This document shows, one piece after another, positions 1 through 9,620 of a stretch of DNA of 10,837 bases. Every line of letters begins with the position of its first letter. Positions within the stretch are counted from its first letter, which is position 1. Source of the stretch: a virus. The stretch lies in UHGV virus genome UHGV-0335500; one strand, given 5' to 3'. The notes beneath the pieces are model-generated. The model was not told where the DNA came from. It worked only from the letters and a program-made list of their open reading frames with translations, and made no database searches. Position numbers and translations under genes: made by a program.

Positions 1-58
1 CTGGCCTGTGAACCGGGTGGGTGCTCTGCTCCCGTGGCGGGTTACTCTGCCTGCCTGA

Positions 59-214
59 CCAGCTTCACTTCGTCAATACGGTTCTCACTGCACGCTTACG
101 GATAAATTTCCTTCAGCACAAATCATCATTGCTGCGGATAACGACCACAGCGAAGGAAGACAAAACACGGGGAGAATAGCAGCAGAAAAGGCAGCTTTAT
201 CTGTTTCTGGATGG
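59..214 (+). other. Upstream in-frame continuation of the primase reading frame (Toprim-like acidic motif), cut by a TGA at 56-58
   Basis: Manual translation of the frame of the 215 ORF upstream gives PASLRQYGSHCTLTDKFPSAQIIIAADNDHSEGRQNTGRIAAEKAALSVSGW, contiguous with the ORF. IIIAADNDHSEG resembles the Toprim DxD metal-binding motif. No ATG/GTG/TTG exists in this frame between the TGA at 56-58 and the GTG at 215. Confidence 0.5.
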
Positions 215-2080
215 GTGGCATTACCCCCGACAGATCACAAAGCAGACTGGAATGATTACCACCAAAAACACGGCATTAAATGCGCCACAGAAGCGTTCAA
301 TAAGTCAATGTACCAACCACAGGGTAATGGCGTGAAACAGGAGCCACAGACCATTGAGGGAAGCGATTTTAAGGTTATGGATACCGACCCACTGAAACCA
401 AGAATAGAAAGCCGCGAGGATGGTATTTATTGGGTATCTCCGAGAGCTGACAGCCAGAGTGGAGAAATCATCAATAACGAAAGCTGGTTATGTTCTCCGT
501 TAAGCGTTATCGGTACTGGCAGAGACGATAAAGACCAGTATCTCATTCTTCGCTGGCTGTCGTTTGGTTCTGAAACGCCGACAACCGCTGCCATTCCACT
601 GGCTGATATTGGTGAACGTGAAGGATGGCGCACACTTAAAGCTGGTGGGGTAAATGTCACGACCAAAAGCAGCCTCAGAGCAATACTGGCAGACTGGCTA
701 CAACGCAGTGGCTCTCGTGAATTGTGGCGTGTTGCTCATGCCACTGGCTGGCAATGCGGAGCGTACATCATGCCTGATGGGGAAATCATCGGAACACCTG
801 AAAATCCTGTGCTGTTCAGCGGGAGAAGCTCAGCCGCAGCCGGATATACCGTCTCAGGGAGCGCGAAAAGCTGGCGTGATAACGTGGCGCGTCTGGCCTT
901 TGGTAACTATTCAATGATGACCGGGATCGGCGCAGCACTGGCAGCGCCATTGATTGGGCTGGTGGGCGCTGACGGGTTCGGCATTCATTTCTATGAGCAG
1001 TCGAGCGCAGGTAAGACCACCACGGCAAACGTGGCGAGCAGCTTATACGGCAACCCTGATTTACTGCGGCTGACGTGGTACGGAACCGCGCTGGGGCTGG
1101 CAAATGAAGCCGCCGCCCACAATGACGGACTAATGCCGCTTGATGAAGTTGGTCAGGGCGCTGATCCTGTCAGTGTTTCACAGTCTGCCTATGCGTTATT
1201 TAACGGTGTAGGGAAACTGCAAGGCGCTAAAGATGGTGGAAACCGGGATCTAAAACGCTGGCGTACAGTGGCAATCAGCACCGGAGAAATGGATTTAGAA
1301 ACATTTATCGCTACTTCCGGGCGAAAAACCAAAGCCGGGCAACTGGTGCGACTGCTGAATATTCCGTTGAGTAAAGCAGTACGCTTTCACGATTACCAGA
1401 ACGGAAAACAGCACGCAGACGCACTGAAAGACGCTTACCAGCATCACCACGGCGCGTCCGGGCGTGAGTGGATTAAATGGCTGGCAGACCACCAGCAACA
1501 GGCTATTAAAACTGTTCGTGACTGCGAAAGCAGATGGAGAAGCCTGATCCCATCCGATTATGGTGAGCAGGTTCACCGTGTAGCCGCGCGATTTGCCATT
1601 CTGGAGGCCGCATTGTTGTTAGGCGAGGTTGTAACAGGCTGGGATGCTCAGACATGCCGTGATGCGATACAGCACAGCTATAACGCATGGTTGCGCGAGT
1701 TCGGCACAGGTAACAAAGAGCATCAGCAGATTATTGAACAAACGGAGGCATTTCTTAATGCCTATGGGCTTAGCCGTTTTGCACCATTTCCATACAGCCC
1801 GGCAGATTTGCCCATCAAAGATTTAGCCGGATACCGTCAGCGTGGAGAACATGACGAAAGCCCAATGATTTTCTACACATTCCCGGCCACATTTGAAAAG
1901 GAGATCGCATGTGGTTTCAACGCAAAACAGTTTGCTGAAGTGTTGAAAAAAGCCGGGATGCTAACCCCACCAAACAGCGGTCGTGGATACCAAAGAAAAT
2001 CACCACGTATTCAGGGACGACAAATAAACGTTTATGTACTCAATTACCAGCCAGGAGATTACAACTCATCTGAAGAATGA
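215..2080 (+). CDS. P4 alpha-like primase-helicase, C-terminal NTPase/helicase portion (D5_N / DUF927-type); gene looks 5'-disrupted or N-terminally truncated
   Basis: 621-aa ORF from GTG 215 to TGA 2078-2080. Walker A-like motif HFYEQSSAGKTTTANV sits at about 1007-1021. Overall architecture matches my recollection of P4 alpha-type primase-helicases, and the gene is followed immediately by iterons. Confidence 0.8.
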   Translation: MALPPTDHKADWNDYHQKHGIKCATEAFNKSMYQPQGNGVKQEPQTIEGSDFKVMDTDPLKPRIESREDGIYWVSPRADSQSGEIINNESWLCSPLSVIGTGRDDKDQYLILRWLSFGSETPTTAAIPLADIGEREGWRTLKAGGVNVTTKSSLRAILADWLQRSGSRELWRVAHATGWQCGAYIMPDGEIIGTPENPVLFSGRSSAAAGYTVSGSAKSWRDNVARLAFGNYSMMTGIGAALAAPLIGLVGADGFGIHFYEQSSAGKTTTANVASSLYGNPDLLRLTWYGTALGLANEAAAHNDGLMPLDEVGQGADPVSVSQSAYALFNGVGKLQGAKDGGNRDLKRWRTVAISTGEMDLETFIATSGRKTKAGQLVRLLNIPLSKAVRFHDYQNGKQHADALKDAYQHHHGASGREWIKWLADHQQQAIKTVRDCESRWRSLIPSDYGEQVHRVAARFAILEAALLLGEVVTGWDAQTCRDAIQHSYNAWLREFGTGNKEHQQIIEQTEAFLNAYGLSRFAPFPYSPADLPIKDLAGYRQRGEHDESPMIFYTFPATFEKEIACGFNAKQFAEVLKKAGMLTPPNSGRGYQRKSPRIQGRQINVYVLNYQPGDYNSSEE

Positions 2081-2096: not shown

Positions 2097-2215
2097 AGAA
2101 AAGGTGTTGGTTCAGTTGGTTCAGTTGGTTCAATTTGTAAAGAGTATTGTTTTATAAGGATTTTATTCTTTTTATTGAACCAACACTGAACCAACAACAC
2201 GGCATTTTGAACCAA
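2097..2215. repeat. Iteron cluster A: 3 tight direct TTGGTTCA(G/A) repeats, AT-rich spacer, 3 inverted TGAACCAA repeats; ori/crr-like
   Basis: Direct 9-mers at 2107-2115, 2116-2124 and 2125-2133. AT-rich spacer 2134-2174. Inverted copies (C/T)TGAACCAA at 2175-2183, 2186-2194 and 2207-2215. Positions 2101-2144 are the exact reverse complement of 8601-8644. Lies 17 bp after the primase stop. Confidence 0.8.
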
Positions 2216-2315
2216 CACAACGTGACTGAATTGATGAGCACAACATCTGGCTGGCATTAGAGAGTGTTTTACGAAATCTGAACACCACATCACTGGTTTC
2301 AGTGGGAGATTGATG

Positions 2316-2771
2316 ATGAAGATAATCGCAAAGGCTTTTCATCATGTATTTGGCAAAGTATCCGATTTGCCATCTGTAATACCGATGAACAACAGAAGGG
2401 AGATGCTGCTTGATATGGTTGTGTTCCCATACATAGACCTTTCTGAACCAATGAAAGCAACTCTTTTCAGAAAGTATCTTGGCGACTTTAAACGCCGTTT
2501 TACAGGCGTTAACGGGATGGTTGATATCTGCTCCATCAGAGATATTGTTGAACTTGCAGGGATTAATTTGTGGGGAGAAGCGGCAGCAGCATACAAATGG
2601 CTTGAACGCCTGCACTGTGTTTCATTCAGTGACATGAGTGCTGATATCGCTTTAATGGTTCCTCACAAAATCAATATGGTCTTTGCTGGTGGCAATTACA
2701 CTTATCCATGGAACCAGGAACAAAGAGAGAACAGGAAAGCTCACGCCATGAAGAGTAATGCGACTCCATAA
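2316..2771 (+). CDS. Hypothetical protein (151 aa), stand-alone transcription unit
   Basis: ORF track 2310..2771. Shine-Dalgarno GGGAGA at 2304-2309 is best spaced for the ATG at 2316. An intrinsic terminator follows. No motif recognised. Confidence 0.6.
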   Translation: MKIIAKAFHHVFGKVSDLPSVIPMNNRREMLLDMVVFPYIDLSEPMKATLFRKYLGDFKRRFTGVNGMVDICSIRDIVELAGINLWGEAAAAYKWLERLHCVSFSDMSADIALMVPHKINMVFAGGNYTYPWNQEQRENRKAHAMKSNATP

Positions 2772-2823
2772 ATATAGTTTTTAGAGTCCATAAAAAAACT
2801 GTCAAAACCTGACATACAGAACG

Positions 2824-2856
2824 ATGCCACCAGCTACTGAACGGTGGCATTTTTTT
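2824..2856 (+). terminator. Rho-independent terminator after the 151-aa gene
   Basis: Stem ATGCCACC (2824-2831) pairs with GGTGGCAT (2843-2850), 11-nt loop, then a T run at 2851-2856. Just upstream, TGTCA-N5-TGACA (2801-2815) preceded by an A run could terminate on the opposite strand. Confidence 0.6.
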
Positions 2857-2887
2857 GTGCTATTTGTTTCATATTTTGCAATCACAA

Positions 2888-2918
2888 TGATGAATGTTGC
2901 GTTTTATGAAACTATAAT
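2888..2918 (+). promoter_or_regulatory. Putative sigma70 promoter for the 57-aa/489-aa/701-aa operon
   Basis: Perfect -10 TATAAT at 2913-2918. The -35 is weak (TGATGA/ATGAAT near 2888-2895). Located between the upstream terminator and the strong Shine-Dalgarno at 2941-2947. Confidence 0.35.
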
Positions 2919-2951
2919 GACTGTTGTTTTATACAGTTCTAAGGGGGCGTT

Positions 2952-3125
2952 ATGGCTATTTCAGTAAAGCCAGTATTGATAAGTGAGAAGCAAATGGAAG
3001 CGATAAAGAAAATTCAGGAGGAGCAGCGTAAAAAATCAGAGGTAGGAGTTGCGCCAACGATCCACGAAATTGCTCGGGGATTAATGGATAAGGCGCTGGC
3101 TTACACTTTAACTGGACGTGGGTAA
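2952..3125 (+). CDS. Small (57 aa) Lys/Glu-rich protein, possible ribbon-helix-helix DNA-binding protein; first gene of operon
   Basis: Not in the ORF track (under 60 aa). ATG 2952 is preceded by AAGGGGG at 2941-2947. Translation is MAISVKPVLISEKQMEAIKKIQEEQRKKSEVGVAPTIHEIARGLMDKALAYTLTGRG. The strand-helix-loop-helix pattern is by eye only. Stop TAA at 3123-3125 abuts the next start. Confidence 0.5.
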   Translation: MAISVKPVLISEKQMEAIKKIQEEQRKKSEVGVAPTIHEIARGLMDKALAYTLTGRG

Positions 3126-3129
3126 ATCA

Positions 3130-4596
3130 ATGGCTACGTGGCAACAGGGTATTAATTCTGGTGGTTTTCTGGCTGGCATCGGTACGCAAAATGAGAATGC
3201 GCCAAAGGCAAGCGACATTAACGCAACGCTTGGTCTGATCCGCGAAAACAATGAACTGGCTCGCTCAGGTGCAAATAACGTTGCTCTGACAGGTCTTCGT
3301 GGTCTGGCTGGCGTTGCTGATATTTATAAGCAGCAGCAACAGCAGGAGCGTAAAGCGGCATTCCAGAAAGGTTATGCAGATGCTTATGCGTCCGGTGACA
3401 GGGAGCAGATGCGTAATCTTATTACAGCATTCCCAGAAGAGTTTGAGGAAGTCCGTAAAGGGATGAGTTATGTCGATGATGCTCAAAGGGATGATTATGG
3501 CAATCTGGCGCTCAAAGCACAGGTAGCCTCATCGCTTGGTCAGGGCGCATTTGGCAGGTTCATGATGGATAATGAGCAGGAGATGCGTCGTTTAGGTATC
3601 CCTCCAGAAACTATTGCTGAAATGCAGGTTAATGACCCGCAGGGCTTCCAGCATTTCGCAGGTAATCTGGCGCTGTTTTCTCTCGGTCATGAGAAGTATT
3701 TCGATATCAAAGATCAAATGGAAGGTCGGGATATTGAGCGTGGCAAGTTGGCAGAGACAATCCGCAGCAATCAGGCTGGCGAAGCACTTCAGGCGAGAGG
3801 GCAGGATATTAGCCGAGCAAATGCGTTAACGTCAGCATATGCACCAACAGCAGCAATGCAGAATTACAATCAGTACGCTCAAATGTTAAAGGCGGATCCA
3901 GAGGGGGCGGCGGCATTTGCGGCAGCGGCTGGAATTAATACAAACGCCAAAAAATTAATGAGTGTTAGAGAAAACGATGATGGCACTGTCACAAAATACT
4001 ACACAGACGGAAGTGAAGAGCAGGGAAAACTAAACCAGCCAATATCTGGAGATGGGTTTCGTCCAATAGCTTTGCCAACAGCCCAAAAGATCATGGAAAA
4101 GTCGCCAGAAGGGGCTAAAAAAGCTGCTGGATTTGCATACAGGGTTAGGGATGCTCTTGATTCAATAGATACACTGAAAGACCAGCTTAGCCCACAGCGA
4201 GTGGCGATCATTAATAATGCTTTGGGTAATGGGACGCTGGCTAACTTAACGCTCAGCCCAACAGAACAGCAATACGTTGTTAATGCTAATGACGCAATAA
4301 TGGCAATACTCCGTCAGGAAACAGGGGCAGCCATCGTACCTGCTGAAATGTCAAAATATTATCAAATGTATTTCCCTCAGCCTGGCGACTCCACAAAAAC
4401 CATTGATACCAAGCGCCGGAAGATGGAAAACCAGTTCAATTCGCTGAAAGCTGCTTCTGGTCGAGCTTATGATGCTTTGCGGGTTATTTCAGCAGTTGAC
4501 AGAGGAACTTCTTCTTCGTCGCAGACATTGCCGCAATCTGAGCAGGTATCACAGCCAGCAGCCAGCAGTAACTTTTCTTCACTATGGGGTGATTAA
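3130..4596 (+). CDS. Hypothetical Ala/Gln-rich protein (about 489 aa), no recognisable catalytic motif
   Basis: Long ORF (track 3118..4596 from GTG; ATG 3130 preferred). Contains a poly-Gln run (KQQQQQERK) and is predicted to be largely helical and low-complexity. The stop overlaps the next start as TAATG at 4594-4598. Confidence 0.85.
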   Translation: MATWQQGINSGGFLAGIGTQNENAPKASDINATLGLIRENNELARSGANNVALTGLRGLAGVADIYKQQQQQERKAAFQKGYADAYASGDREQMRNLITAFPEEFEEVRKGMSYVDDAQRDDYGNLALKAQVASSLGQGAFGRFMMDNEQEMRRLGIPPETIAEMQVNDPQGFQHFAGNLALFSLGHEKYFDIKDQMEGRDIERGKLAETIRSNQAGEALQARGQDISRANALTSAYAPTAAMQNYNQYAQMLKADPEGAAAFAAAAGINTNAKKLMSVRENDDGTVTKYYTDGSEEQGKLNQPISGDGFRPIALPTAQKIMEKSPEGAKKAAGFAYRVRDALDSIDTLKDQLSPQRVAIINNALGNGTLANLTLSPTEQQYVVNANDAIMAILRQETGAAIVPAEMSKYYQMYFPQPGDSTKTIDTKRRKMENQFNSLKAASGRAYDALRVISAVDRGTSSSSQTLPQSEQVSQPAASSNFSSLWGD

Positions 4597-6701
4597 TGGC
4601 TAAAGCATGGAAAGATGTTATCGCCTCTCCACAGTATCAGGCGTTAGCACCAGAACAAAAAGCGCAGGCTCAGGAGCAATACTTCAATGAAGTCGTGGCC
4701 CCGCAAGCCGGAGAAAGTGTAGAGCAGGCTAAGCAGGCTTTTTATGCTGCCTATCCACTACCATCAACGAATGAAATAGACCGATCCCAATCAGCAACTC
4801 AAAATATTCAACATACATCATCTGATAATTCTCTTGCGTCAGGGTATGCAAAGTTAGCTACTCAGCAAAGAGAGGGGCTTGAGCGTTCAGCAGAACAGGG
4901 AGCCAGTCTTGGGGCTGCGATGCGCGATGCTATAACAGGCGAAAGCCGAATGACTCCAGAGATGGAGAGACTGCAAAATGTCGACCTTGCCCCAGAGTTA
5001 ACCTCACTCAGCATGGATGCTCTAAAAGCTCGATGGTCTCAACTTTTCGGCTCTGACGCATCTCAGGAAAAGATTCTTCAGAGCATGGGAGCGAAATTAA
5101 GGCAGGATGAGAAGGGTAACACTATCGTTTCCCTGCCATCCGGTGATTATGCTCTGAACAAGCCGGGTTTATCGCCGCAAGACGTGGCATCGTTTCTGGC
5201 TAATGCGCTGGCGTTTACACCAGCGGGCAGGGCTGGAACGGTGCTTGGTGCCATAGGAAAATCAGCAGCTACAGATTTAGCACTACAGGGAGCCACTAGC
5301 CTTGCTGGTGGAGAAGATATTGATCCGTTACAAACGGTAATTTCTGCTGGCATTGGTGGTATTGGTAAGGGGCTGGAAAATACAGCGAGTGCGGTTTCGA
5401 GGGCTGTTCGTGGTGATATGTCGCCTGAAGCAAAGGCTGCTGTCGACTTTGCATCGGAAAGAAATCTGCCGTTAATGACCAGTGACGTACTGAAAGATAA
5501 AAACACTGTGCAGAGTCTGGCCCAGAAAACAGGCGAAAAAATTCCTTTTTTTGGAACGGGTACGAACAGGCTGAATCAACAACAGGCTCGGGAAAATCTG
5601 GTCAGAACATATAACGATGGTCTGGGAGGCATTTCAGATAAACAGCTTTATGAGTCTGCTACTAAAGGGCAGCAAAAATTCATTGAGGCCGCAGGTAAGC
5701 GATATAACCGCATAATTGACGCTATGGGGGATACCCCTGTCGACCTATCAAACACGGTAAAAGCTATCGACAATCAGATTGCCGTGTTAAGCCGCCCGGG
5801 CAAATCTCAGGATAGAGCCGCGGTAAAAGTCTTGCAGCAATTTAAAGACGATATCACCAGCGGGCCAAATGACCTGCGTCTGGCGAGGGAAAACAGAACC
5901 GATCTTCGAAAGCGATTTATGGCGTCATCTGACACTGTTGATAAAGATACGCTCCAGAAAGCCAGCGATATTATCTACAAGGCATATACGGCGGATATGA
6001 AAAAAGCCGTAGCCAAAAATCTTGGAGCAGACGAAGCCATTAATATGGCAAGGGTTGATCGCTCATGGTCTAAATTCAATGACATGATGGGAAGAACGCG
6101 CGTTCAAAAGGCAATAGCCAGCGGCAAGGCCACGCCTGAGGATGTAACAAAACTCGTGTTTAGTCAAAGCCCATCAGAACGTTCTCAGCTTTACAGGCTT
6201 CTGGATGACAATGGTAGGCAAAACGCACGAGCAGCCATAGTTCAGAATGCTGTAGATAAGGCGACTGATCCGTCTGGAAATATCAGTGTTGAGAAGTTTA
6301 TTAATGCGTTACACCGGAACAGGAAGCAATCAGCAACTTTCTTTAAAGGCGTGCACGGAAAGGAACTGGACGGCATTATTAAATACCTCAACGATACCAG
6401 ACAGGCGGCAAAGGTTGACGGTCAGAAATTAAACAGCCAGAAACTTTATGGCCTGCTGGTTGGTGGAGGCGCTATAAATGCGGCAGTTCTGGCGGGGATG
6501 CTGAAAACGGCTGCGTTTGTTGTTCCTGCTGCTGGTGCTTTAGGCGGAGCAGCGAAGGCATACGAAAGCCCTGTTATACGAAATGCCTTATTACGTCTGG
6601 CAAATACGCCAAAAGGTAGCACAGCATATGACAGAGCGATCAGTACAGTCACACAATCACTGACCACAGCAGCACAAGCATCGCAAAAGGAAGCTCAATA
6701 A
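4596..6701 (+). CDS. Hypothetical large protein (701 aa) with glycine-zipper-like hydrophobic segments; possibly membrane-interacting
   Basis: ORF 4596..6701, translationally coupled to the upstream gene. Gly/Ala-rich hydrophobic stretches: TVLGAIGKSAATDLALQGATSLAGG, VISAGIGGIGKGL and C-terminal LYGLLVGGGAINAAVLAGMLKTAAFVVPAAGALGGAAKAY. No canonical Walker A or nuclease motif seen. Confidence 0.9.
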   Translation: MAKAWKDVIASPQYQALAPEQKAQAQEQYFNEVVAPQAGESVEQAKQAFYAAYPLPSTNEIDRSQSATQNIQHTSSDNSLASGYAKLATQQREGLERSAEQGASLGAAMRDAITGESRMTPEMERLQNVDLAPELTSLSMDALKARWSQLFGSDASQEKILQSMGAKLRQDEKGNTIVSLPSGDYALNKPGLSPQDVASFLANALAFTPAGRAGTVLGAIGKSAATDLALQGATSLAGGEDIDPLQTVISAGIGGIGKGLENTASAVSRAVRGDMSPEAKAAVDFASERNLPLMTSDVLKDKNTVQSLAQKTGEKIPFFGTGTNRLNQQQARENLVRTYNDGLGGISDKQLYESATKGQQKFIEAAGKRYNRIIDAMGDTPVDLSNTVKAIDNQIAVLSRPGKSQDRAAVKVLQQFKDDITSGPNDLRLARENRTDLRKRFMASSDTVDKDTLQKASDIIYKAYTADMKKAVAKNLGADEAINMARVDRSWSKFNDMMGRTRVQKAIASGKATPEDVTKLVFSQSPSERSQLYRLLDDNGRQNARAAIVQNAVDKATDPSGNISVEKFINALHRNRKQSATFFKGVHGKELDGIIKYLNDTRQAAKVDGQKLNSQKLYGLLVGGGAINAAVLAGMLKTAAFVVPAAGALGGAAKAYESPVIRNALLRLANTPKGSTAYDRAISTVTQSLTTAAQASQKEAQ

Positions 6702-6760
6702 CAGATGACCATGGATGGTTGGCTATAATAGTAATTAGTTTTTTCAAATAGTTATGAACA

Positions 6761-7159
6761 TTAACACTTGCCTTTAACATTGCCGACAAATGAGCCTGTA
6801 AATGAGCCTATATCAGATCGACTAATTGTTCGTGTATGGATCACTTTTCCGTCATTTGAGATTGCCCATGTGACAAGCGTCAGTTGACCATCTCGATAGC
6901 TTCTTCCCATCATGGCATTCGGAGATAGCGGGTAATAATCAATACCTCCACCTATACCATCTTTTGCCAAGATAAGATCCGCCTTCTCTTTACTTATTAC
7001 CAAATGAAAGGTATCTGGTATAGATGATAACTTATAGTTATACCCATCTGAACTTGAGGCTTCTTGTCCTTTCAGATCACCAATAATCCAGCATTCAGCG
7101 TTCGCTCCAAAAGAAGCAAATAATAAACCGGAGACAACCAATCGCTTCAATTGATTCAC
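6761..7159 (-). CDS. Small secreted (periplasmic) protein, about 132 aa with Sec signal peptide; unknown function
   Basis: Lies inside ORF-track 6761..7417 (minus). Preferred start is GTG at 7159-7157, preceded by a strong Shine-Dalgarno AAGGGAGGG. N-terminus MNQLKRLVVSGLLFASFGANA|ECW is a typical signal peptide with an AXA cleavage site. Mature part is about 111 aa with Cys near both ends. Convergent with the 701-aa gene. Confidence 0.65.
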   Translation of the reverse strand: MNQLKRLVVSGLLFASFGANAECWIIGDLKGQEASSSDGYNYKLSSIPDTFHLVISKEKADLILAKDGIGGGIDYYPLSPNAMMGRSYRDGQLTLVTWAISNDGKVIHTRTISRSDIGSFTGSFVGNVKGKC

Positions 7160-7239
7160 ACCAACCCTCCCTTTAGCGTTGTTTAGAATGGCAATCATCA
7201 TATATCCAAGACATGGCATTTGGTACATAGCTTGGGTCG

Positions 7240-7252
7240 GGATTTCAAATCC
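7240..7252. promoter_or_regulatory. 13-bp perfect palindrome GGATTTCAAATCC upstream of the secreted-protein gene; candidate operator
   Basis: Palindrome seen directly, about 80-95 bp upstream of the GTG at 7159 on the minus strand. Confidence 0.35.
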
Positions 7253-7343
7253 GCCCCCGTTGATGGGGTCGTTACAGTACGCGCATATCCGCTTTATGTG
7301 AAACAGGAAGATTTTTCTGATATCACTGCCACAGCAAAACACC

Positions 7344-7367
7344 AATTTCGTGACCAGTACGCGCGCG
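7344..7367. repeat. Dispersed 24-bp repeat, copy R2 (AATTTCGTGACCAGTACGCGCGCG)
   Basis: Shares AATTTC-N2-GA-N2-A-N-TACGCGCGCG with copies at 7631-7656 and 9240-9263. Shorter partial copies sit at 7275-7285 (ACAGTACGCGC) and 7405-7415 (GACCAGTACGC). Confidence 0.6.
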
Positions 7368-7630
7368 AGGGGTATCAGTTGCAAAAAATTTTGCAACTGC
7401 GTCCGACCAGTACGCACACGATGGCGGGGAGCACCATAAAACTGTTCTCTACATAAGACAGAGTGGTGGTGATGTGTTGATTATCGGCGTATATGCGCAC
7501 AGGACGCGCTATGACGATATTTTATGCGGGTACACCAATCACATGTATCTGGTGTGATCAATCGCGTTACATGACATCTCATGTTGTGCTGGTGATTATC
7601 ACGACGTTCTGAATCTGGCCTTTGCCTGAT

Positions 7631-7656
7631 ATTTTGCGACAAGTACGCGCGCGTAG
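7631..7656. repeat. Dispersed 24-bp repeat, copy R4, with perfect palindromic core GTACGCGCGCGTAC
   Basis: ATTTTGCGACAAGTACGCGCGCGTAG. The alternating CG core is self-complementary. Confidence 0.6.
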
Positions 7657-7681
7657 CATCGACAGCATACACATTGGATAT

Positions 7682-7882
7682 TCATTTTGTGACCAATGCG
7701 ATAAGTAGCGGGATAAGAATTGATAAAATCAACAGGACGATGATCCACTTTTGATTCTCGTCCATCTTATCTGCTAGGCGACGCTCCATTCCGTGCATAT
7801 CACCGCGAATGGCAATCATCTCATTGCGAACATCCGAGAAGTGGTTGGCTTGATGTTCAATGTGTGGCGTTCTGCCTTTCAT
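7682..7882 (-). CDS. Small tail-anchored membrane protein (66 aa); possibly XhlA/holin-like
   Basis: ATG at 7882-7880 preceded by Shine-Dalgarno GGTGAGGA. Translation MKGRTPHIEHQANHFSDVRNEMIAIRGDMHGMERRLADKMDENQKWIIVLLILSILIPLLIALVTK has a charged N-terminal part and one C-terminal transmembrane helix. Family assignment is from memory, low confidence. Confidence 0.55.
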   Translation of the reverse strand: MKGRTPHIEHQANHFSDVRNEMIAIRGDMHGMERRLADKMDENQKWIIVLLILSILIPLLIALVTK

Positions 7883-7961
7883 GTCTGATCCTCACCTATC
7901 GTCACCACCTGATGGTGTATAAAGGTATTAGCCCAAGCAGCTTTCCAATGGGCACTCATGT

Positions 7962-8417
7962 TTATACGCTGACCTTACAATCAATCACCGCTTTTAACTT
8001 TTCAGCATTGCTTCCCTGACGCTTCCACGCGCTGTAAATATCTTTATCCCACGCTTTACCAGCTTTTGTTTGATAGCCTGCTTCATTGATCCGTTCAGCT
8101 ATCACACGCCCATTATCAAATCCCTGTTGGATGGTATCGGCAATGATCTTTATAACTGCCGTTTCGTTATATGGTTTTGGTGGGATGTTCGGCTTTCCGG
8201 CAATAAGCGACGCAGCGGCTTTTTCCATGCGCTCCACCAGCCCAAGCATTCGTGAATCAATAGACTTTTCCGGCTGCCCCAGCTTCATGCGAATCGCATC
8301 AACAAGCCAAGAGGTTTTATCTCCTCCAGAAGCGAGAACAGACCGATTAAACTCATCCTGCAATTCAGATGGGATGCGGAACGCGATCAGATTAGATTTG
8401 CTCATTGCAAAGACCAT
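7962..8417 (-). CDS. Ribbon-helix-helix-like DNA-binding protein (147-151 aa)
   Basis: ORF track 7962..8417 (minus); alternative start ATG at 8405-8403 (MSKSNLIAFRIPSELQDEFNRSV...). N-terminus fits a beta-strand plus two helices. Co-directional with and 79 bp upstream of the 66-aa membrane protein gene, so probably one operon. Confidence 0.65.
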   Translation of the reverse strand: MVFAMSKSNLIAFRIPSELQDEFNRSVLASGGDKTSWLVDAIRMKLGQPEKSIDSRMLGLVERMEKAAASLIAGKPNIPPKPYNETAVIKIIADTIQQGFDNGRVIAERINEAGYQTKAGKAWDKDIYSAWKRQGSNAEKLKAVIDCKVSV

Positions 8418-8435
8418 ATCAGTGAGTAATATCCA

Positions 8436-8464
8436 TACAGTATACCACTGTATAACACTGTTAT
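8436..8464. promoter_or_regulatory. Adjacent palindromes TACAGT-N5-ACTGTA and ATAACA-C-TGTTAT upstream of the ribbon-helix-helix gene; candidate autoregulatory operator
   Basis: Inverted repeats read directly at 8436-8452 and 8452-8464, in the 5' region of the leftward gene. Confidence 0.4.
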
Positions 8465-8520
8465 ACGCTCAAATATCAGCCAGAAAATAACAGACCAATC
8501 ACAAATCTATCGCTGTGTTG

Positions 8521-8644
8521 TTGGTTCAGAGCTGGGCTGTGTTGGTTCAAAATGAGTTGATGTTGGTTCAATATTTTAGAAAAAACACAATAAAAACAAC
8601 GCTCTTTACAAATTGAACCAACTGAACCAACTGAACCAACACCT
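8521..8644. repeat. Iteron cluster B: inverted copy of cluster A (3 loose TTGGTTCA at 21-bp spacing, AT-rich spacer, 3 tight TGAACCAA); ori/crr-like
   Basis: TTGGTTCA(G/A) at 8521-8529, 8542-8550 and 8563-8571. AT-rich 8572-8612. (T/C)TGAACCAA at 8613-8621, 8622-8630 and 8631-8639. Positions 8601-8644 are the reverse complement of 2101-2144. Confidence 0.8.
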
Positions 8645-8676
8645 TTTTGCTTATCTATATAATCTGAGAGGCAGAA

Positions 8677-8964
8677 ATGATAAAGGACAGGAAAGCTGAA
8701 GAGCTGGAGTCAAAAGGGCTATACCGGAGAGCTGCCGCACGATGGGCAGAAGTCATGATGCTGGCAGATGGCGATAAAGAACGTGAACATGCAGTAAACA
8801 GACGCTCTGAATGTATCCGTAAGGCGGCACGCCCACCAGCAACTACAGACAGATTCGGAGATTTAAGACAGGCAGTTAAGCGGACTCATTCGGCTCTTGG
8901 TATGGATGAGGAAGCGAGAGGGTACTTCAGGCGTTATCGCGATAAAGATTGCCAGAGACAGTAA
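8677..8964 (+). CDS. PerC-family-like small transcriptional regulator (95 aa)
   Basis: ORF with Shine-Dalgarno GAGG 6 nt before the ATG. AEELESKGLYRRAAARWAEVMM resembles the conserved N-terminal signature of PerC/Pch-type regulators as I recall it. Confidence 0.6.
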   Translation: MIKDRKAEELESKGLYRRAAARWAEVMMLADGDKEREHAVNRRSECIRKAARPPATTDRFGDLRQAVKRTHSALGMDEEARGYFRRYRDKDCQRQ

Positions 8965-9370: not shown

Positions 9371-9480
9371 TCAAAAATCGCATTAGCAAGAAACCAGCCA
9401 CAATGCGGCATTGAAGCCAACACTCTACAAACAGATTCAGAGTAACTCGTAACACTAATTCTTACTTTTCAGCCTTCACA

Positions 9481-9604: not shown

Positions 9605-9620
9605 CTGTATATAAATACAG
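9605..9620. promoter_or_regulatory. LexA (SOS) box in the dinD promoter
   Basis: CTGTATATAAATACAG matches the CTGT-N8-ACAG LexA consensus and sits 45 bp upstream of the dinD ATG. Confidence 0.8.

What the first reader, a model, noticed from the sequence alone, without database searches (positions are those of the whole stretch)
2097..8644. Two inverted iteron clusters bracket the 6.4-kb cargo
Cluster A (2097-2215) and cluster B (8521-8644) share the same internal design (three tight 9-bp repeats, about 40 bp of AT-rich DNA, three looser inverted repeats) and are inverted copies of each other. Their outer 44-48 bp are identical and their inner parts have diverged. Cluster A starts 17 bp after the primase stop. 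P4 is known to have two cis-acting replication regions (ori and crr), kilobases apart, built from octamer iterons bound by the alpha protein, and A/B are plausibly the analogues here. The perfect outer identity also allows the bracketed segment to invert or be exchanged by homologous recombination.
Basis: partly seen in the sequence, partly recalled or inferred. Interest (0 to 1): 0.6.

Follow-up and report, generated by a model that had tools for sequence, protein, structure and literature searches.

The report
Satellite replication origin split by cargo
The two inverted repeat clusters are the two mirror-image halves of the replication origin of an E. coli phage satellite (an EcCIMP1-like PICI); they normally sit side by side, but here 6.4 kb of phage-derived cargo genes lie between them.

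Summary
TTGGTTCA occurs 13 times in the window (0.5 expected). Twelve copies form two mirror-image modules, A (2099-2217) and B (8519-8647). Each has three tandem iterons, a 43-bp AT-rich spacer and three phased inverted iterons. The outer 46 bp are identical.

The element is an EcCIMP1-like PICI inserted between yicC and dinD. Module A is the canonical PICI/SaPI-type origin, directly 3' of pri-rep. The new point concerns B. In about two dozen relatives, with at least seven different iteron sequences, both modules lie adjacent in a 250-320 bp bipartite origin. In E. coli and five other genera they are separated by 2-10 kb of cargo.

Iteron columns stay 96-98% identical in both modules, while the spacers fall to about 61%. 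The iteron sequence co-varies with the C-terminal wing of the primase. B is therefore very probably a second Pri-Rep binding and melting module, functionally like P4 ori/crr. It is not a member of that system.

Inversion is not supported: 0 of 549 E. coli genomes carry the inverted junction, and no split island where primase and cargo are both visible has flipped cargo. In this copy an IS66 element truncates the primase. I rate it a new variant of a known kind, of moderate interest.

The parts
1..96 (.). Terminal inverted-repeat end of an IS66-family element that truncates the primase gene inside its TOPRIM domain
   Evidence: Bases 1-99 are 100% identical to the ends of IS66-family transposase regions on 344 plasmids. 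Homology to the intact primase of L001 starts at about position 97. No complete E. coli genome covers this junction.
97..2080 (+). 3' part (about residues 258-918) of the Pri-Rep gene: end of TOPRIM, DUF927 helicase domain and C-terminal iteron-specificity segment
   Evidence: Pfam DUF927, E = 1.7e-47. The full-length homologue is 918 aa with Zn-ribbon, Toprim_3 and DUF927 domains. PDB 8tch 'Pathogenicity island protein', E = 1.4e-11. The last ~80 residues co-vary with the iteron sequence.
2099..2217 (+).
   Evidence: Conserved in all relatives directly 3' of the primase. Iteron columns are 98.5% identical against 60.8% for the rest of the module.
2444..2451 (-). Lone extra iteron copy inside a segment present only in some islands; significance unknown
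   Evidence: It lies in the 2275-2701 segment that only L001 and L004 share with the window.
2898..2936 (+). Promoter-like TTGCGT-N-TATAAT followed by a LexA-box-like CTGTTGTTTTATACAG, just upstream of the cargo operon
   Evidence: CTGT-N8-ACAG occurs twice in the window (0.12 expected). The other copy is the known SOS-gene dinD box position at 9605-9620. The segment 2702-3100 is conserved at about 90% in all E. coli islands compared.
2952..6701 (+). Cargo operon: small ORF (2952-3125), P22 gp20-like ejection protein (3118-4596) and P22 gp16-like DNA-transfer protein (4596-6701)
   Evidence: Pfam Inj_translocase, E = 1.6e-83. PHROG 917 'released from the phage upon host infection' and PHROG 770 'DNA transfer protein'.
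6761..8417 (-). Minus-strand small cargo genes (6761-7159, 7682-7882, 7962-8405). The last one diverges from perC across module B
   Evidence: RefSeq annotation of the 99.6%-identical locus L001. PHROG hits are of unknown function. There are no PADLOC hits. The homologue of 7962-8417 sits next to module 2 in many relatives.
8519..8647 (-).
   Evidence: Present in every E. coli island fetched with an intact primase next to module A, and in split islands of five other genera. Iteron columns are 95.6% identical against 62.3% for the rest. In compact relatives the same module lies about 45 bp from module 1.
8677..8964 (+). perC-family regulator gene, starting 37 bp after the tight array of module 2
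   Evidence: Pfam PerC, E = 5.5e-33. A gene start follows the module-2 tight array within about 40-75 bp in the compact and split relatives checked.
9431..9439 (+). attR core (ACAGATTCA), the right end of the island
   Evidence: The junction of the circular excised form L093 reads attR-left joined to attL-right across this core. It matches the yicC-dinD PICI core listed in Table S1 of PMC6092414.

Best explanation
A and B are the two mirror-image modules of the bipartite, iteron-type replication origin of an EcCIMP1-like phage-inducible chromosomal island. The island's initiator is a fused primase-helicase (Zn-ribbon, TOPRIM and DUF927).

Each module has the design of a complete SaPI/PICI origin: a tight array of three 9-bp-spaced iterons on the outside, a 43-bp AT-rich unwinding element, and three iterons phased at one or two helical turns on the inside, pointing the other way. 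In most relatives the two modules are about 45 bp apart and form one quasi-palindromic origin of 250-320 bp between the primase stop and the next gene. In this lineage the island's late and accessory region (here 6.4 kb; 2-10 kb elsewhere) lies in the linker, so the cargo sits inside the origin.

Inferred mechanism:
- The C-terminal wing of Pri-Rep reads the iterons.
- Oligomers bound on both sides of each AT-rich spacer melt it and the helicase loads itself.
- Two modules give two loading sites. These either fire independently or cooperate by looping, as P4 alpha does between ori and crr.
- The outer array of B also abuts the start region of perC, so Rep occupancy may be coupled to perC transcription.

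Shown here: the anatomy, its conservation, the compact-versus-split relationship, and the co-variation between protein and iteron. Inferred: binding, melting, and whether both modules are required.

In this particular copy the primase is cut by an IS66 element, so the origin is probably idle unless Rep is supplied in trans.
For: 1. Anatomy and statistics.
2. The context is a PICI: int, an AlpA-like HTH gene, pri-rep, origin, perC, at the yicC-dinD att site. EcCIMP1, which has been shown experimentally to be induced and transferred by the P22-like phage Kapi1 (PMC11773190), has the same two modules 8.5 kb apart.
3. Published PICI and SaPI origins are iterons in opposite orientation flanking an AT-rich region directly 3' of rep (PMC6092414; PMC9371898). 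Each module fits that description.
4. Compact two-module origins occur in relatives with seven or more unrelated iteron sequences: L039, L034, L038, L082, L023, L036, L016-19. They also occur with the same TTGGTTCA iteron in L003, L092, L094, L028 and L051. Tally of 62 loci: 40 have four or more orientation blocks within about 600 bp, 5 are split, 8 show only the proximal module and 9 are unclear.
5. L051 (compact) and L020 (split) have 93%-identical primase regions and differ by a 5.9-kb indel lying exactly between the inner iterons of module 1 and the tight array of module 2.
6. Both modules are under the same constraint. Across eight islands from six genera, iteron columns are 98.5% (A) and 95.6% (B) identical, against 60.8% and 62.3% for the other columns.
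7. Specificity co-variation: primases that are 97-100% identical in the core differ in the last ~80 residues (QRKSPRI versus QGRV-RE) exactly when the iterons of both modules switch from TTGGTTCA to TGTTGTCT.
8. A 12,152-bp circular record, L093, is a precise attP excision product carrying A and B 1.9 kb apart.
Against: - No binding, melting or replication data exist for this family. The EcCIMP1 paper does not mention an origin.
- Some loci show only the proximal module: L021, L052 and L054, and L032 and L033 within the 10 kb available. One module might therefore suffice.
- In the compact TTGGTTCA forms the inner iterons of module 2 are partly degenerate or in mixed orientation, so the exact two-module symmetry is not universal.
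- The single circular record could be an excised, non-replicating circle or an assembly product.
- The C-terminal domain model was of low confidence (pLDDT 49), so its winged-helix fold is not shown.
- The primase in this window is disrupted.
Confidence: 0.68

Rival explanations
1. B is a redundant or relic copy of the origin with no present function. Module A alone is the working origin, as in the published one-module description of PICI origins.
For: Published PICI origins are described as a single iteron / AT-rich / iteron unit. A few relatives show only one module near the primase (L021, L052, L054). B persists in degenerate islands that have lost the primase (L002, L091).
Against: The iterons of B are 95.6% conserved while its spacers have fallen to 62% across six genera, the same pattern as in A. 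B accompanies every intact primase + A junction examined in E. coli. The two-module design recurs with unrelated iteron sequences, which a decaying duplicate would not do.
Confidence: 0.14
2. B is mainly a transcriptional operator. Pri-Rep bound to the arrays regulates the divergent genes on either side (the 7962-8405 gene and perC), and replication needs only A.
For: The tight array of module 2 ends 37 bp before the perC start codon, with a perfect TATAAT at 8658-8663. A gene start follows module 2 within about 40-75 bp in the compact and split relatives checked. B lies in a divergent intergenic region.
Against: The consensus promoter scan finds nothing at B. B keeps an AT-rich spacer and phased inner iterons, which an operator would not need. 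The gene after module 2 is not always perC: in L020, L027 and L031 perC follows A instead. This reading is compatible with the main explanation rather than exclusive of it.
Confidence: 0.12
3. The inverted arms are recombination substrates. The 6.4-kb segment inverts as a switch, or cassettes are swapped through the 46-bp identity.
For: The 46 bp of perfect inverted identity is around the minimum length for RecA-dependent recombination (my own knowledge). The cargo between the modules does differ among islands.
Against: No inverted junction was found in 549 matching complete E. coli genomes. Orientation is the same in every split island where primase and cargo are both visible: 7 fetched E. 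coli loci, 5 other genera and about 11 IMG/VR contigs. No invertase gene is present in the window. Mosaic breakpoints are not at the arms. Single-base variants in the A and B arms are not shared within an island, so there is no sign of ongoing conversion.
Confidence: 0.04

Closest known systems
SaPI and Gram-negative PICI replication origins (Ubeda et al.; Fillol-Salom et al. 2018, PMC6092414; Qiao et al. 2022, PMC9371898)
   Same: The origin lies immediately 3' of the pri-rep gene. Short iterons in opposite orientation flank an AT-rich region, with 6-12 iterons in all. The initiator is a self-loading helicase; the DUF927 part matches PDB 8tch 'Pathogenicity island protein'. The island architecture is int-alpA-pri-ori-perC.
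   Different: The published description is one iteron / AT-rich / iteron unit. This family has two such units in mirror orientation, and here they are 6.4 kb apart with the accessory genes between them.
Satellite phage P4 ori and crr, bound by the alpha primase-helicase
   Same: Two iteron-bearing cis regions lie kilobases apart on a satellite of about 12-17 kb. One cluster lies directly 3' of the primase gene, with tandem 9-bp-spaced iterons, an AT-rich stretch and inverted iterons. The primase half is homologous (33% identity, E = 2e-41).
   Different: The helicase and origin-binding part is not homologous (DUF927 versus D5_N/DUF5906/Pox_D5). The iteron is TTGGTTCA, not TGTTCACC. P4 crr is a direct 120-bp duplication rather than a mirror partner. 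psu, delta, sid and cos are absent from the window and from the annotated relatives. The requirement for both sites is shown for P4 (my own knowledge) but not here.
EcCIMP1, the PICI of E. coli MP1 mobilised by the P22-like phage Kapi1 (Pick et al. 2025, PMC11773190)
   Same: It is the same island family: the same primase, the same P22-like ejection-protein cassette, perC, and the same two iteron modules.
   Different: It uses a different att site (tRNA-Thr versus yicC-dinD), different perC and cargo alleles, and an 8.5-kb interval. The paper does not describe the origin. The window's copy has an IS66-disrupted primase.
Plasmid R6K origins alpha, beta and gamma, activated by pi-protein looping (my own knowledge, not tested here)
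   Same: Iteron-binding initiator sites several kilobases apart cooperate in cis.
   Different: The initiator is unrelated, there is no mirror symmetry of modules, and the element is a plasmid rather than a satellite.

Membership tests
Gram-negative PICI (Fillol-Salom 2018 criteria) | Tyrosine integrase at one end with a specific att site | tested here: met
   The integrase lies next to yicC in L001 and L004. The attR core is at window 9431-9439, and attP is reconstituted in the circular form L093. The yicC-dinD site is listed for PICIs. The integrase itself lies outside the window.
Gram-negative PICI (Fillol-Salom 2018 criteria) | AlpA-type regulator and pri-rep gene transcribed in the same direction | tested here: met
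   An HTH/AlpA-family gene and the primase are on the same strand in all annotated relatives. Only the 3' part of the primase lies in the window.
Gram-negative PICI (Fillol-Salom 2018 criteria) | [quoted passage not shown] | tested here: met
   Module A at 2099-2217 starts 19 bp after the stop codon and has an 84% AT spacer.
Gram-negative PICI (Fillol-Salom 2018 criteria) | Induction, excision, replication and packaging by a helper phage | not testable with these tools
   This is shown for the family member EcCIMP1 with phage Kapi1 (PMC11773190). An excised circle exists as the record NZ_CP148430.1. This copy has a disrupted primase.
P4-like satellites | Alpha-type primase-helicase (Zn-ribbon, TOPRIM, D5_N, Pox_D5) | tested here: not met
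   Only the Zn-ribbon/TOPRIM half is homologous. The remainder is DUF927, not D5_N/Pox_D5.
P4-like satellites | psu, delta, sid and epsilon genes, and a helper cos site | tested here: not met
   No such genes appear in the window or in the annotated full islands.
P4-like satellites | Type I iterons TGTTCACC at ori and crr | tested here: not met
   The iteron here is (TG)TTGGTTCA. TGTTCACC is used by P4 and by a different PICI at the same att site, EcCIRM13514.
Site-specific invertible segments (Hin/Gin/Cin type, shufflons) | A recombinase gene next to the inverted repeats, and both orientations found in populations | tested here: not met
   No invertase is present in the window. No inverted junction was found in 549 genomes, and orientation is uniform in all the split islands examined.
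Bipartite mirror origin of the Zn-ribbon/TOPRIM/DUF927 Pri-Rep family (defined here) | Module 1 (tight array, AT-rich spacer, phased inverted iterons) plus module 2 (its mirror image), bounded by convergent tight arrays, with the same iteron in both | tested here: met
   The window's A and B match the design seen in compact form in L034, L036, L038, L039, L082, L092 and L094. They differ only in the 6.3-kb linker.

The most novel reading that the evidence does not exclude
The two origin halves work only together, communicating by Pri-Rep-mediated looping across 2-10 kb, so that the satellite's accessory region is physically embedded in a functional split origin. The centre of the quasi-palindromic origin would then be the recurrent entry point for cargo: perC lies inside the interval in some genera and outside it in others, and the split form is polyphyletic on the primase tree. 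P4's long-puzzling ori/crr arrangement could have arisen by the same splitting of an ancestral bipartite origin.
Probability: 0.2. Interest if true: 0.7.

Novelty: new variant of a known kind. Interest (0 to 1): 0.5.

Why it matters
PICI and SaPI origins are treated as single compact units next to rep. This family has a two-module mirror origin that tolerates kilobases of cargo between its halves, which gives a natural experiment on how self-loading primase-helicases use their binding sites. Three things become testable: whether one module loads one helicase, whether the modules must touch, and whether distance matters.

It also matters for annotation and engineering. Anyone who delimits the 'replication module' of these satellites as pri plus the adjacent repeats would miss half of the origin. 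The cargo region (ejection proteins, Abi, and the gop-beta-type defence gene seen in a relative) lies between origin halves rather than downstream of the replicon.

Finally, it gives a concrete and testable evolutionary route to the two-site (ori/crr) arrangement of P4.

Tried and rejected
- **Inversion.** I built the junction expected after inversion (pri - arm - reverse complement of the sequence inside B) and searched 5,426 complete E. coli genomes. The best coverage was 58% and none spanned the junction.
- **Arms as exchange points.** Pairwise BLAST of the window against six E. coli islands puts the mosaic breakpoints away from the arms.
- **B as the origin of a second, nested element.** There is no primase remnant beside B. 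Module 2 is also followed directly by perC, or another gene, in the compact relatives.
- **C-terminal domain fold.** An AlphaFold model of residues 740-918 reached only pLDDT 49, so I ran no fold search. A profile search of the PDB found no P4 alpha origin-binding domain hit.
- **Promoter and terminator scans** around A and B gave nothing above shuffled expectation.
- **Rfam**, at gathering threshold on the whole window, gave no hit.
- **PADLOC** on the cargo ORFs gave no defence-system hit.
- **The published att core GAGCAGATTCAA** is not found in the window at up to one mismatch. The shorter core ACAGATTCA was then identified from the excised circle.
- **Literature.** The tight-array sequence occurs in no paper of the library.
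- **EcCIRM13514**, the published PICI at the same att site, turned out to have a different primase and P4-type iterons, so it is not a direct comparator.
- **How the split arose.** I could not derive the E. coli arrangement from the compact one by a single inversion, deletion or homologous exchange. This is left open.
Full report
**1. The observation**

The window holds 13 copies of TTGGTTCA, against 0.5 expected (maximum 3 in 200 shuffles). Twelve of them form two clusters.

- **Cluster A.** Three tandem GTTGGTTCA at 2106-2132 (9-bp period), a 43-bp spacer at 2133-2175 (84% AT) and three TGAACCAACA at 2176, 2187 and 2208.
- **Cluster B, the mirror image.** Three TGTTGGTTCA at 8519, 8540 and 8561 (21-bp spacing), a 43-bp spacer at 8571-8613 (79% AT) and three tandem TGAACCAAC at 8614-8640.

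The arms 2099-2153 and 8593-8647 are 96% complementary over 55 nt. The exact stretch is 46 bp, 2099-2144 against 8602-8647. The inner halves have diverged. The primase stop codon is at 2078-2080.

**2. Context**

The window is 99.6% identical to a region of E. coli ISHS7. There an island of about 16.5 kb lies between yicC and dinD. Its gene order is:

- integrase, an AlpA-like HTH gene, antirepressor and ash genes;
- a 918-aa primase with Zn-ribbon, TOPRIM and DUF927 domains;
- cluster A;
- a P22 gp20-like and a gp16-like ejection protein, then three small minus-strand genes;
- cluster B, then perC and attR.

The attR core ACAGATTCA is at 9431-9439. PICIs at this att site are listed in Table S1 of Fillol-Salom et al. 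2018. The experimentally studied PICI EcCIMP1 of E. coli MP1, which is induced and transferred by the P22-like phage Kapi1 (PMC11773190), is the same kind of island. It has the same two clusters, 8.5 kb apart. That paper does not discuss an origin.

**3. What one cluster is**

PICI and SaPI origins are described as lying immediately 3' of rep. They consist of 6-12 short iterons, half on each side of an AT-rich region and pointing in opposite directions. The rep-encoded self-loading helicase binds there through a C-terminal winged-helix domain (PMC6092414; PMC9371898). Cluster A fits this description exactly.

The DUF927 part of the primase matches the PDB chain 8tch, 'Pathogenicity island protein' (E = 1.4e-11), and more weakly 5dgk. 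The N-terminal Zn-ribbon/TOPRIM half is 33% identical to P4 alpha (E = 2e-41). The rest of alpha (D5_N, DUF5906, Pox_D5) is not shared.

**4. Why there are two: the comparative result**

I collected 80 loci encoding relatives of the primase, one genome per species, and looked for iterons just after the primase stop.

In about two dozen loci the origin is a compact array of 250-320 bp with a constant plan:

- module 1: two or three tight tandem iterons, an AT-rich spacer, then three or four inverted iterons at 11/21-bp spacing;
- a linker of about 45 bp;
- module 2: three iterons at 21-bp spacing, a spacer, then three tight tandem iterons pointing inward.

This plan recurs with entirely different iteron sequences:

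| Iteron | Locus |
|---|---|
| AGTGTGTC | Morganella L039 |
| TTGTACCA | Pseudomonas L034 |
| TTGTCTCA | Lelliottia L038 |
| AGTGGGTA | Beggiatoa L082 (module 2 duplicated) |
| ACGGGTTA | L023 |
| TGTTGTCT | L016-19, L025 |
| TCGGTTCA | L026 |

These are shown. The plan also recurs with the window's own TTGGTTCA in E. coli L003 and L092, in the Klebsiella capsid-forming PICI circle L094, and in L028 and L051.

The window's A and B are module 1 and module 2 of this plan. What is unusual is that 6.3 kb, rather than about 45 bp, lies between them.

The same split occurs in:

- every E. coli island fetched with an intact primase next to module A, at three att sites, with intervals of 6.4-9.3 kb;
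- Lonsdalea, Chimaeribacter, Pantoea, Leclercia and Cedecea;
- further IMG/VR contigs, with intervals up to 10.4 kb.

Tally of 62 loci with a full-length primase: 40 have four or more orientation blocks within about 600 bp of the primase stop, 5 are split, 8 show only the proximal module (two of these at contig ends) and 9 have no clear iterons.

Two Lonsdalea loci with 93%-identical primase regions differ by a 5.9-kb indel. It lies exactly between the inner iterons of module 1 and the tight array of module 2, and what follows module 2 is homologous in both.

The split form is not monophyletic on a primase tree. In addition, perC lies after module 2 in E. coli and in compact islands, but inside the interval, right after module 1, in L020, L027, L031 and L032. 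Either the linker has been opened more than once, or modules have been exchanged between islands. I could not reconstruct the event.

**5. Are both modules functional sites?**

Across eight islands from six genera the iteron columns are 98.5% (A) and 95.6% (B) identical in pairwise comparison. The remaining columns of the same modules are 60.8% and 62.3% identical. Within E. coli, B occurs with three different spacer versions but the same iterons. The phasing at 9, 11 and 21 bp is kept even where a 10-bp insertion has occurred (L009).

Primases that are 97-100% identical through the helicase core diverge to about 47% in the last 80 residues exactly when the iterons change. The motif RGYQRKSPRI goes with TTGGTTCA and RGYQGRV-RE goes with TGTTGTCT, and the iterons of both modules change together.

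This is the pattern expected if one C-terminal DNA-reading element of Pri-Rep binds all the iterons of both modules. An AlphaFold model of that region was too poor to name its fold (pLDDT 49).

All 25 evenly sampled E. coli records with a full pri-A match have two places. Records with a single cluster were either degenerate islands that had lost the primase and A (L002, L091) or compact origins (L003, L092).

One complete circular record of 12,152 bp, NZ_CP148430.1, is a precise attP excision product of such an island. Its A and B are 1.9 kb apart. This suggests, but does not prove, that a split origin can sustain an episome.

**6. The recombination idea**

The 46-bp identity could in principle support rare RecA-dependent inversion (my own knowledge of minimal homology lengths). 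The evidence is against it as a feature:

- A query made of the expected inverted junction found no spanning match in 5,426 complete E. coli genomes. Of these, 549 matched parts of the query, and the best coverage was 58%.
- In 7 fetched E. coli loci, 5 loci of other genera and about 11 further IMG/VR contigs, the small ORF and ejection genes always run with the primase, and the 7962-8405 homologue always runs against it.
- Point differences in the arms are not shared between A and B of the same island, so there is no sign of ongoing conversion.

Cargo does vary. Some islands have gp14/gp7-like genes and others do not; the gp20/gp16 alleles differ; an SLT-domain protein or a tape-measure protein appears in Chimaeribacter; a P4-like Beta protein appears in Cedecea; Abi, ImmA/IrrE and HTH genes occur near B. 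The breakpoints between E. coli islands, however, lie at 2274, 2702, about 3100/3310, 6718, 7154-7662 and about 7995, not at the arms.

**7. Mechanism proposed**

- Shown: the anatomy, conservation, co-variation and split-versus-compact relationship described above.
- Inferred from the SaPI and P4 precedents: Pri-Rep oligomers bind the outer tight array and the inner phased iterons of each module, melt the AT-rich spacer and load the helicase. The mirror arrangement provides two loading sites facing opposite ways. Separating them by kilobases on a circle of 12-19 kb need not abolish function, because each module has the full design of a SaPI-type origin. Alternatively they may cooperate by looping, as P4 alpha does between ori and crr.
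- A secondary role is possible. The tight array of module 2 ends 37 bp before perC, with a TATAAT at 8658-8663. A gene start follows module 2 in the relatives checked, although the consensus promoter scan is negative.

**8. Comparison with known systems, and novelty**

Module A is an ordinary PICI origin, and the island is a member of a described PICI group. It works like P4 ori/crr but fails the P4 membership tests for the helicase and origin-binding domain, the iteron, and psu/delta/sid.

I found no description of two things: the two-module mirror design of this family's origin, and its natural splitting by the accessory region. The iteron array occurs in no paper of the library, and neither PMC6092414 nor PMC11773190 mentions a second cluster. 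I therefore rate it a new variant of a known kind.

**9. Caveat specific to this window**

Bases 1-96 are the end of an IS66-family element. The primase reading frame resumes at about residue 258, inside TOPRIM, and no complete E. coli genome has this junction. This copy is therefore probably replication-defective unless Pri-Rep is supplied in trans. Its cis elements are intact.

Noticed in passing
window 1-96: The window starts with the terminal inverted repeat of an IS66-family element (GTAAGCG... on the minus strand). It interrupts the primase inside its TOPRIM domain. No complete E. coli genome in the collection has this junction, so this copy of the island probably cannot replicate on its own.
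   Followed up: partly
window 2898-2936: A promoter-like TTGCGT...TATAAT is followed immediately by a LexA-box-like CTGTTGTTTTATACAG, just upstream of the small-ORF / gp20-like / gp16-like operon. The only other CTGT-N8-ACAG in the window is at dinD (9605-9620). This recalls the LexA control of SaPI operon I (my own knowledge) and suggests that the cargo operon is SOS-induced.
   Followed up: partly
window 2952-6701; L005, L006-L009, L096: The islands carry a cassette of P22-type ejection-protein homologues: DUF2824/gp14-like, gp7-like, gp20-like, and gp16-like or SLT-domain. Relatives in other genera carry a tape-measure protein instead (L027). This fits a P22-like helper (Kapi1 for EcCIMP1), but why a satellite should supply its own ejection proteins is unexplained.
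   Followed up: partly
L093 (NZ_CP148430.1, 12,152 bp, circular): A record deposited as a non-mobilizable 'plasmid' is a precise attP excision circle of a related island. Its gp20-like gene is cut short and its origin modules are 1.9 kb apart. It is either a replicating episome or an excised circle caught by assembly.
   Followed up: partly
L095 8556-8800 (EcCIRM13514, E. coli RM13514): The published PICI at the same yicC-dinD site has a different primase (607 aa). Its origin of about 230 bp is built from TGTTCACC, the same octamer as the P4 type I iteron, in several alternating blocks.
   Followed up: no
L082 6700-7270 (Beggiatoa MAG): In a very distant relative the origin has three modules. 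Module 2, with its flank, is tandemly duplicated about 250 bp downstream.
   Followed up: no
L045 13614-14729 (Cedecea davisae): In this split island the cargo between the origin halves includes a Beta-protein homologue (PF14350, E = 5e-53), the family of the beta gene in P4's gop-beta-cII defence locus.
   Followed up: no
L002 (E. coli O111 110512) 10194-14215: In this degraded tRNA-Thr island the whole block of a small gene, module B, perC and pRiA4b-ORF3 is inverted relative to the integrase, and the primase is lost next to an IS1203 copy. This looks like an IS-associated rearrangement, not an inversion between A and B.
   Followed up: partly
window 8430-8462: The stretch ACAGTATACCACTGTATAACACTGTTATAC, made of repeated ACAGT/ACTGT motifs, lies between the start of the minus-strand gene 7962-8405 and module B. 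It may be an operator for that gene's product, whose N-terminus looked to me like a ribbon-helix-helix motif; Pfam gave no hit for it, only a weak PHROG hit of unknown function.
   Followed up: no
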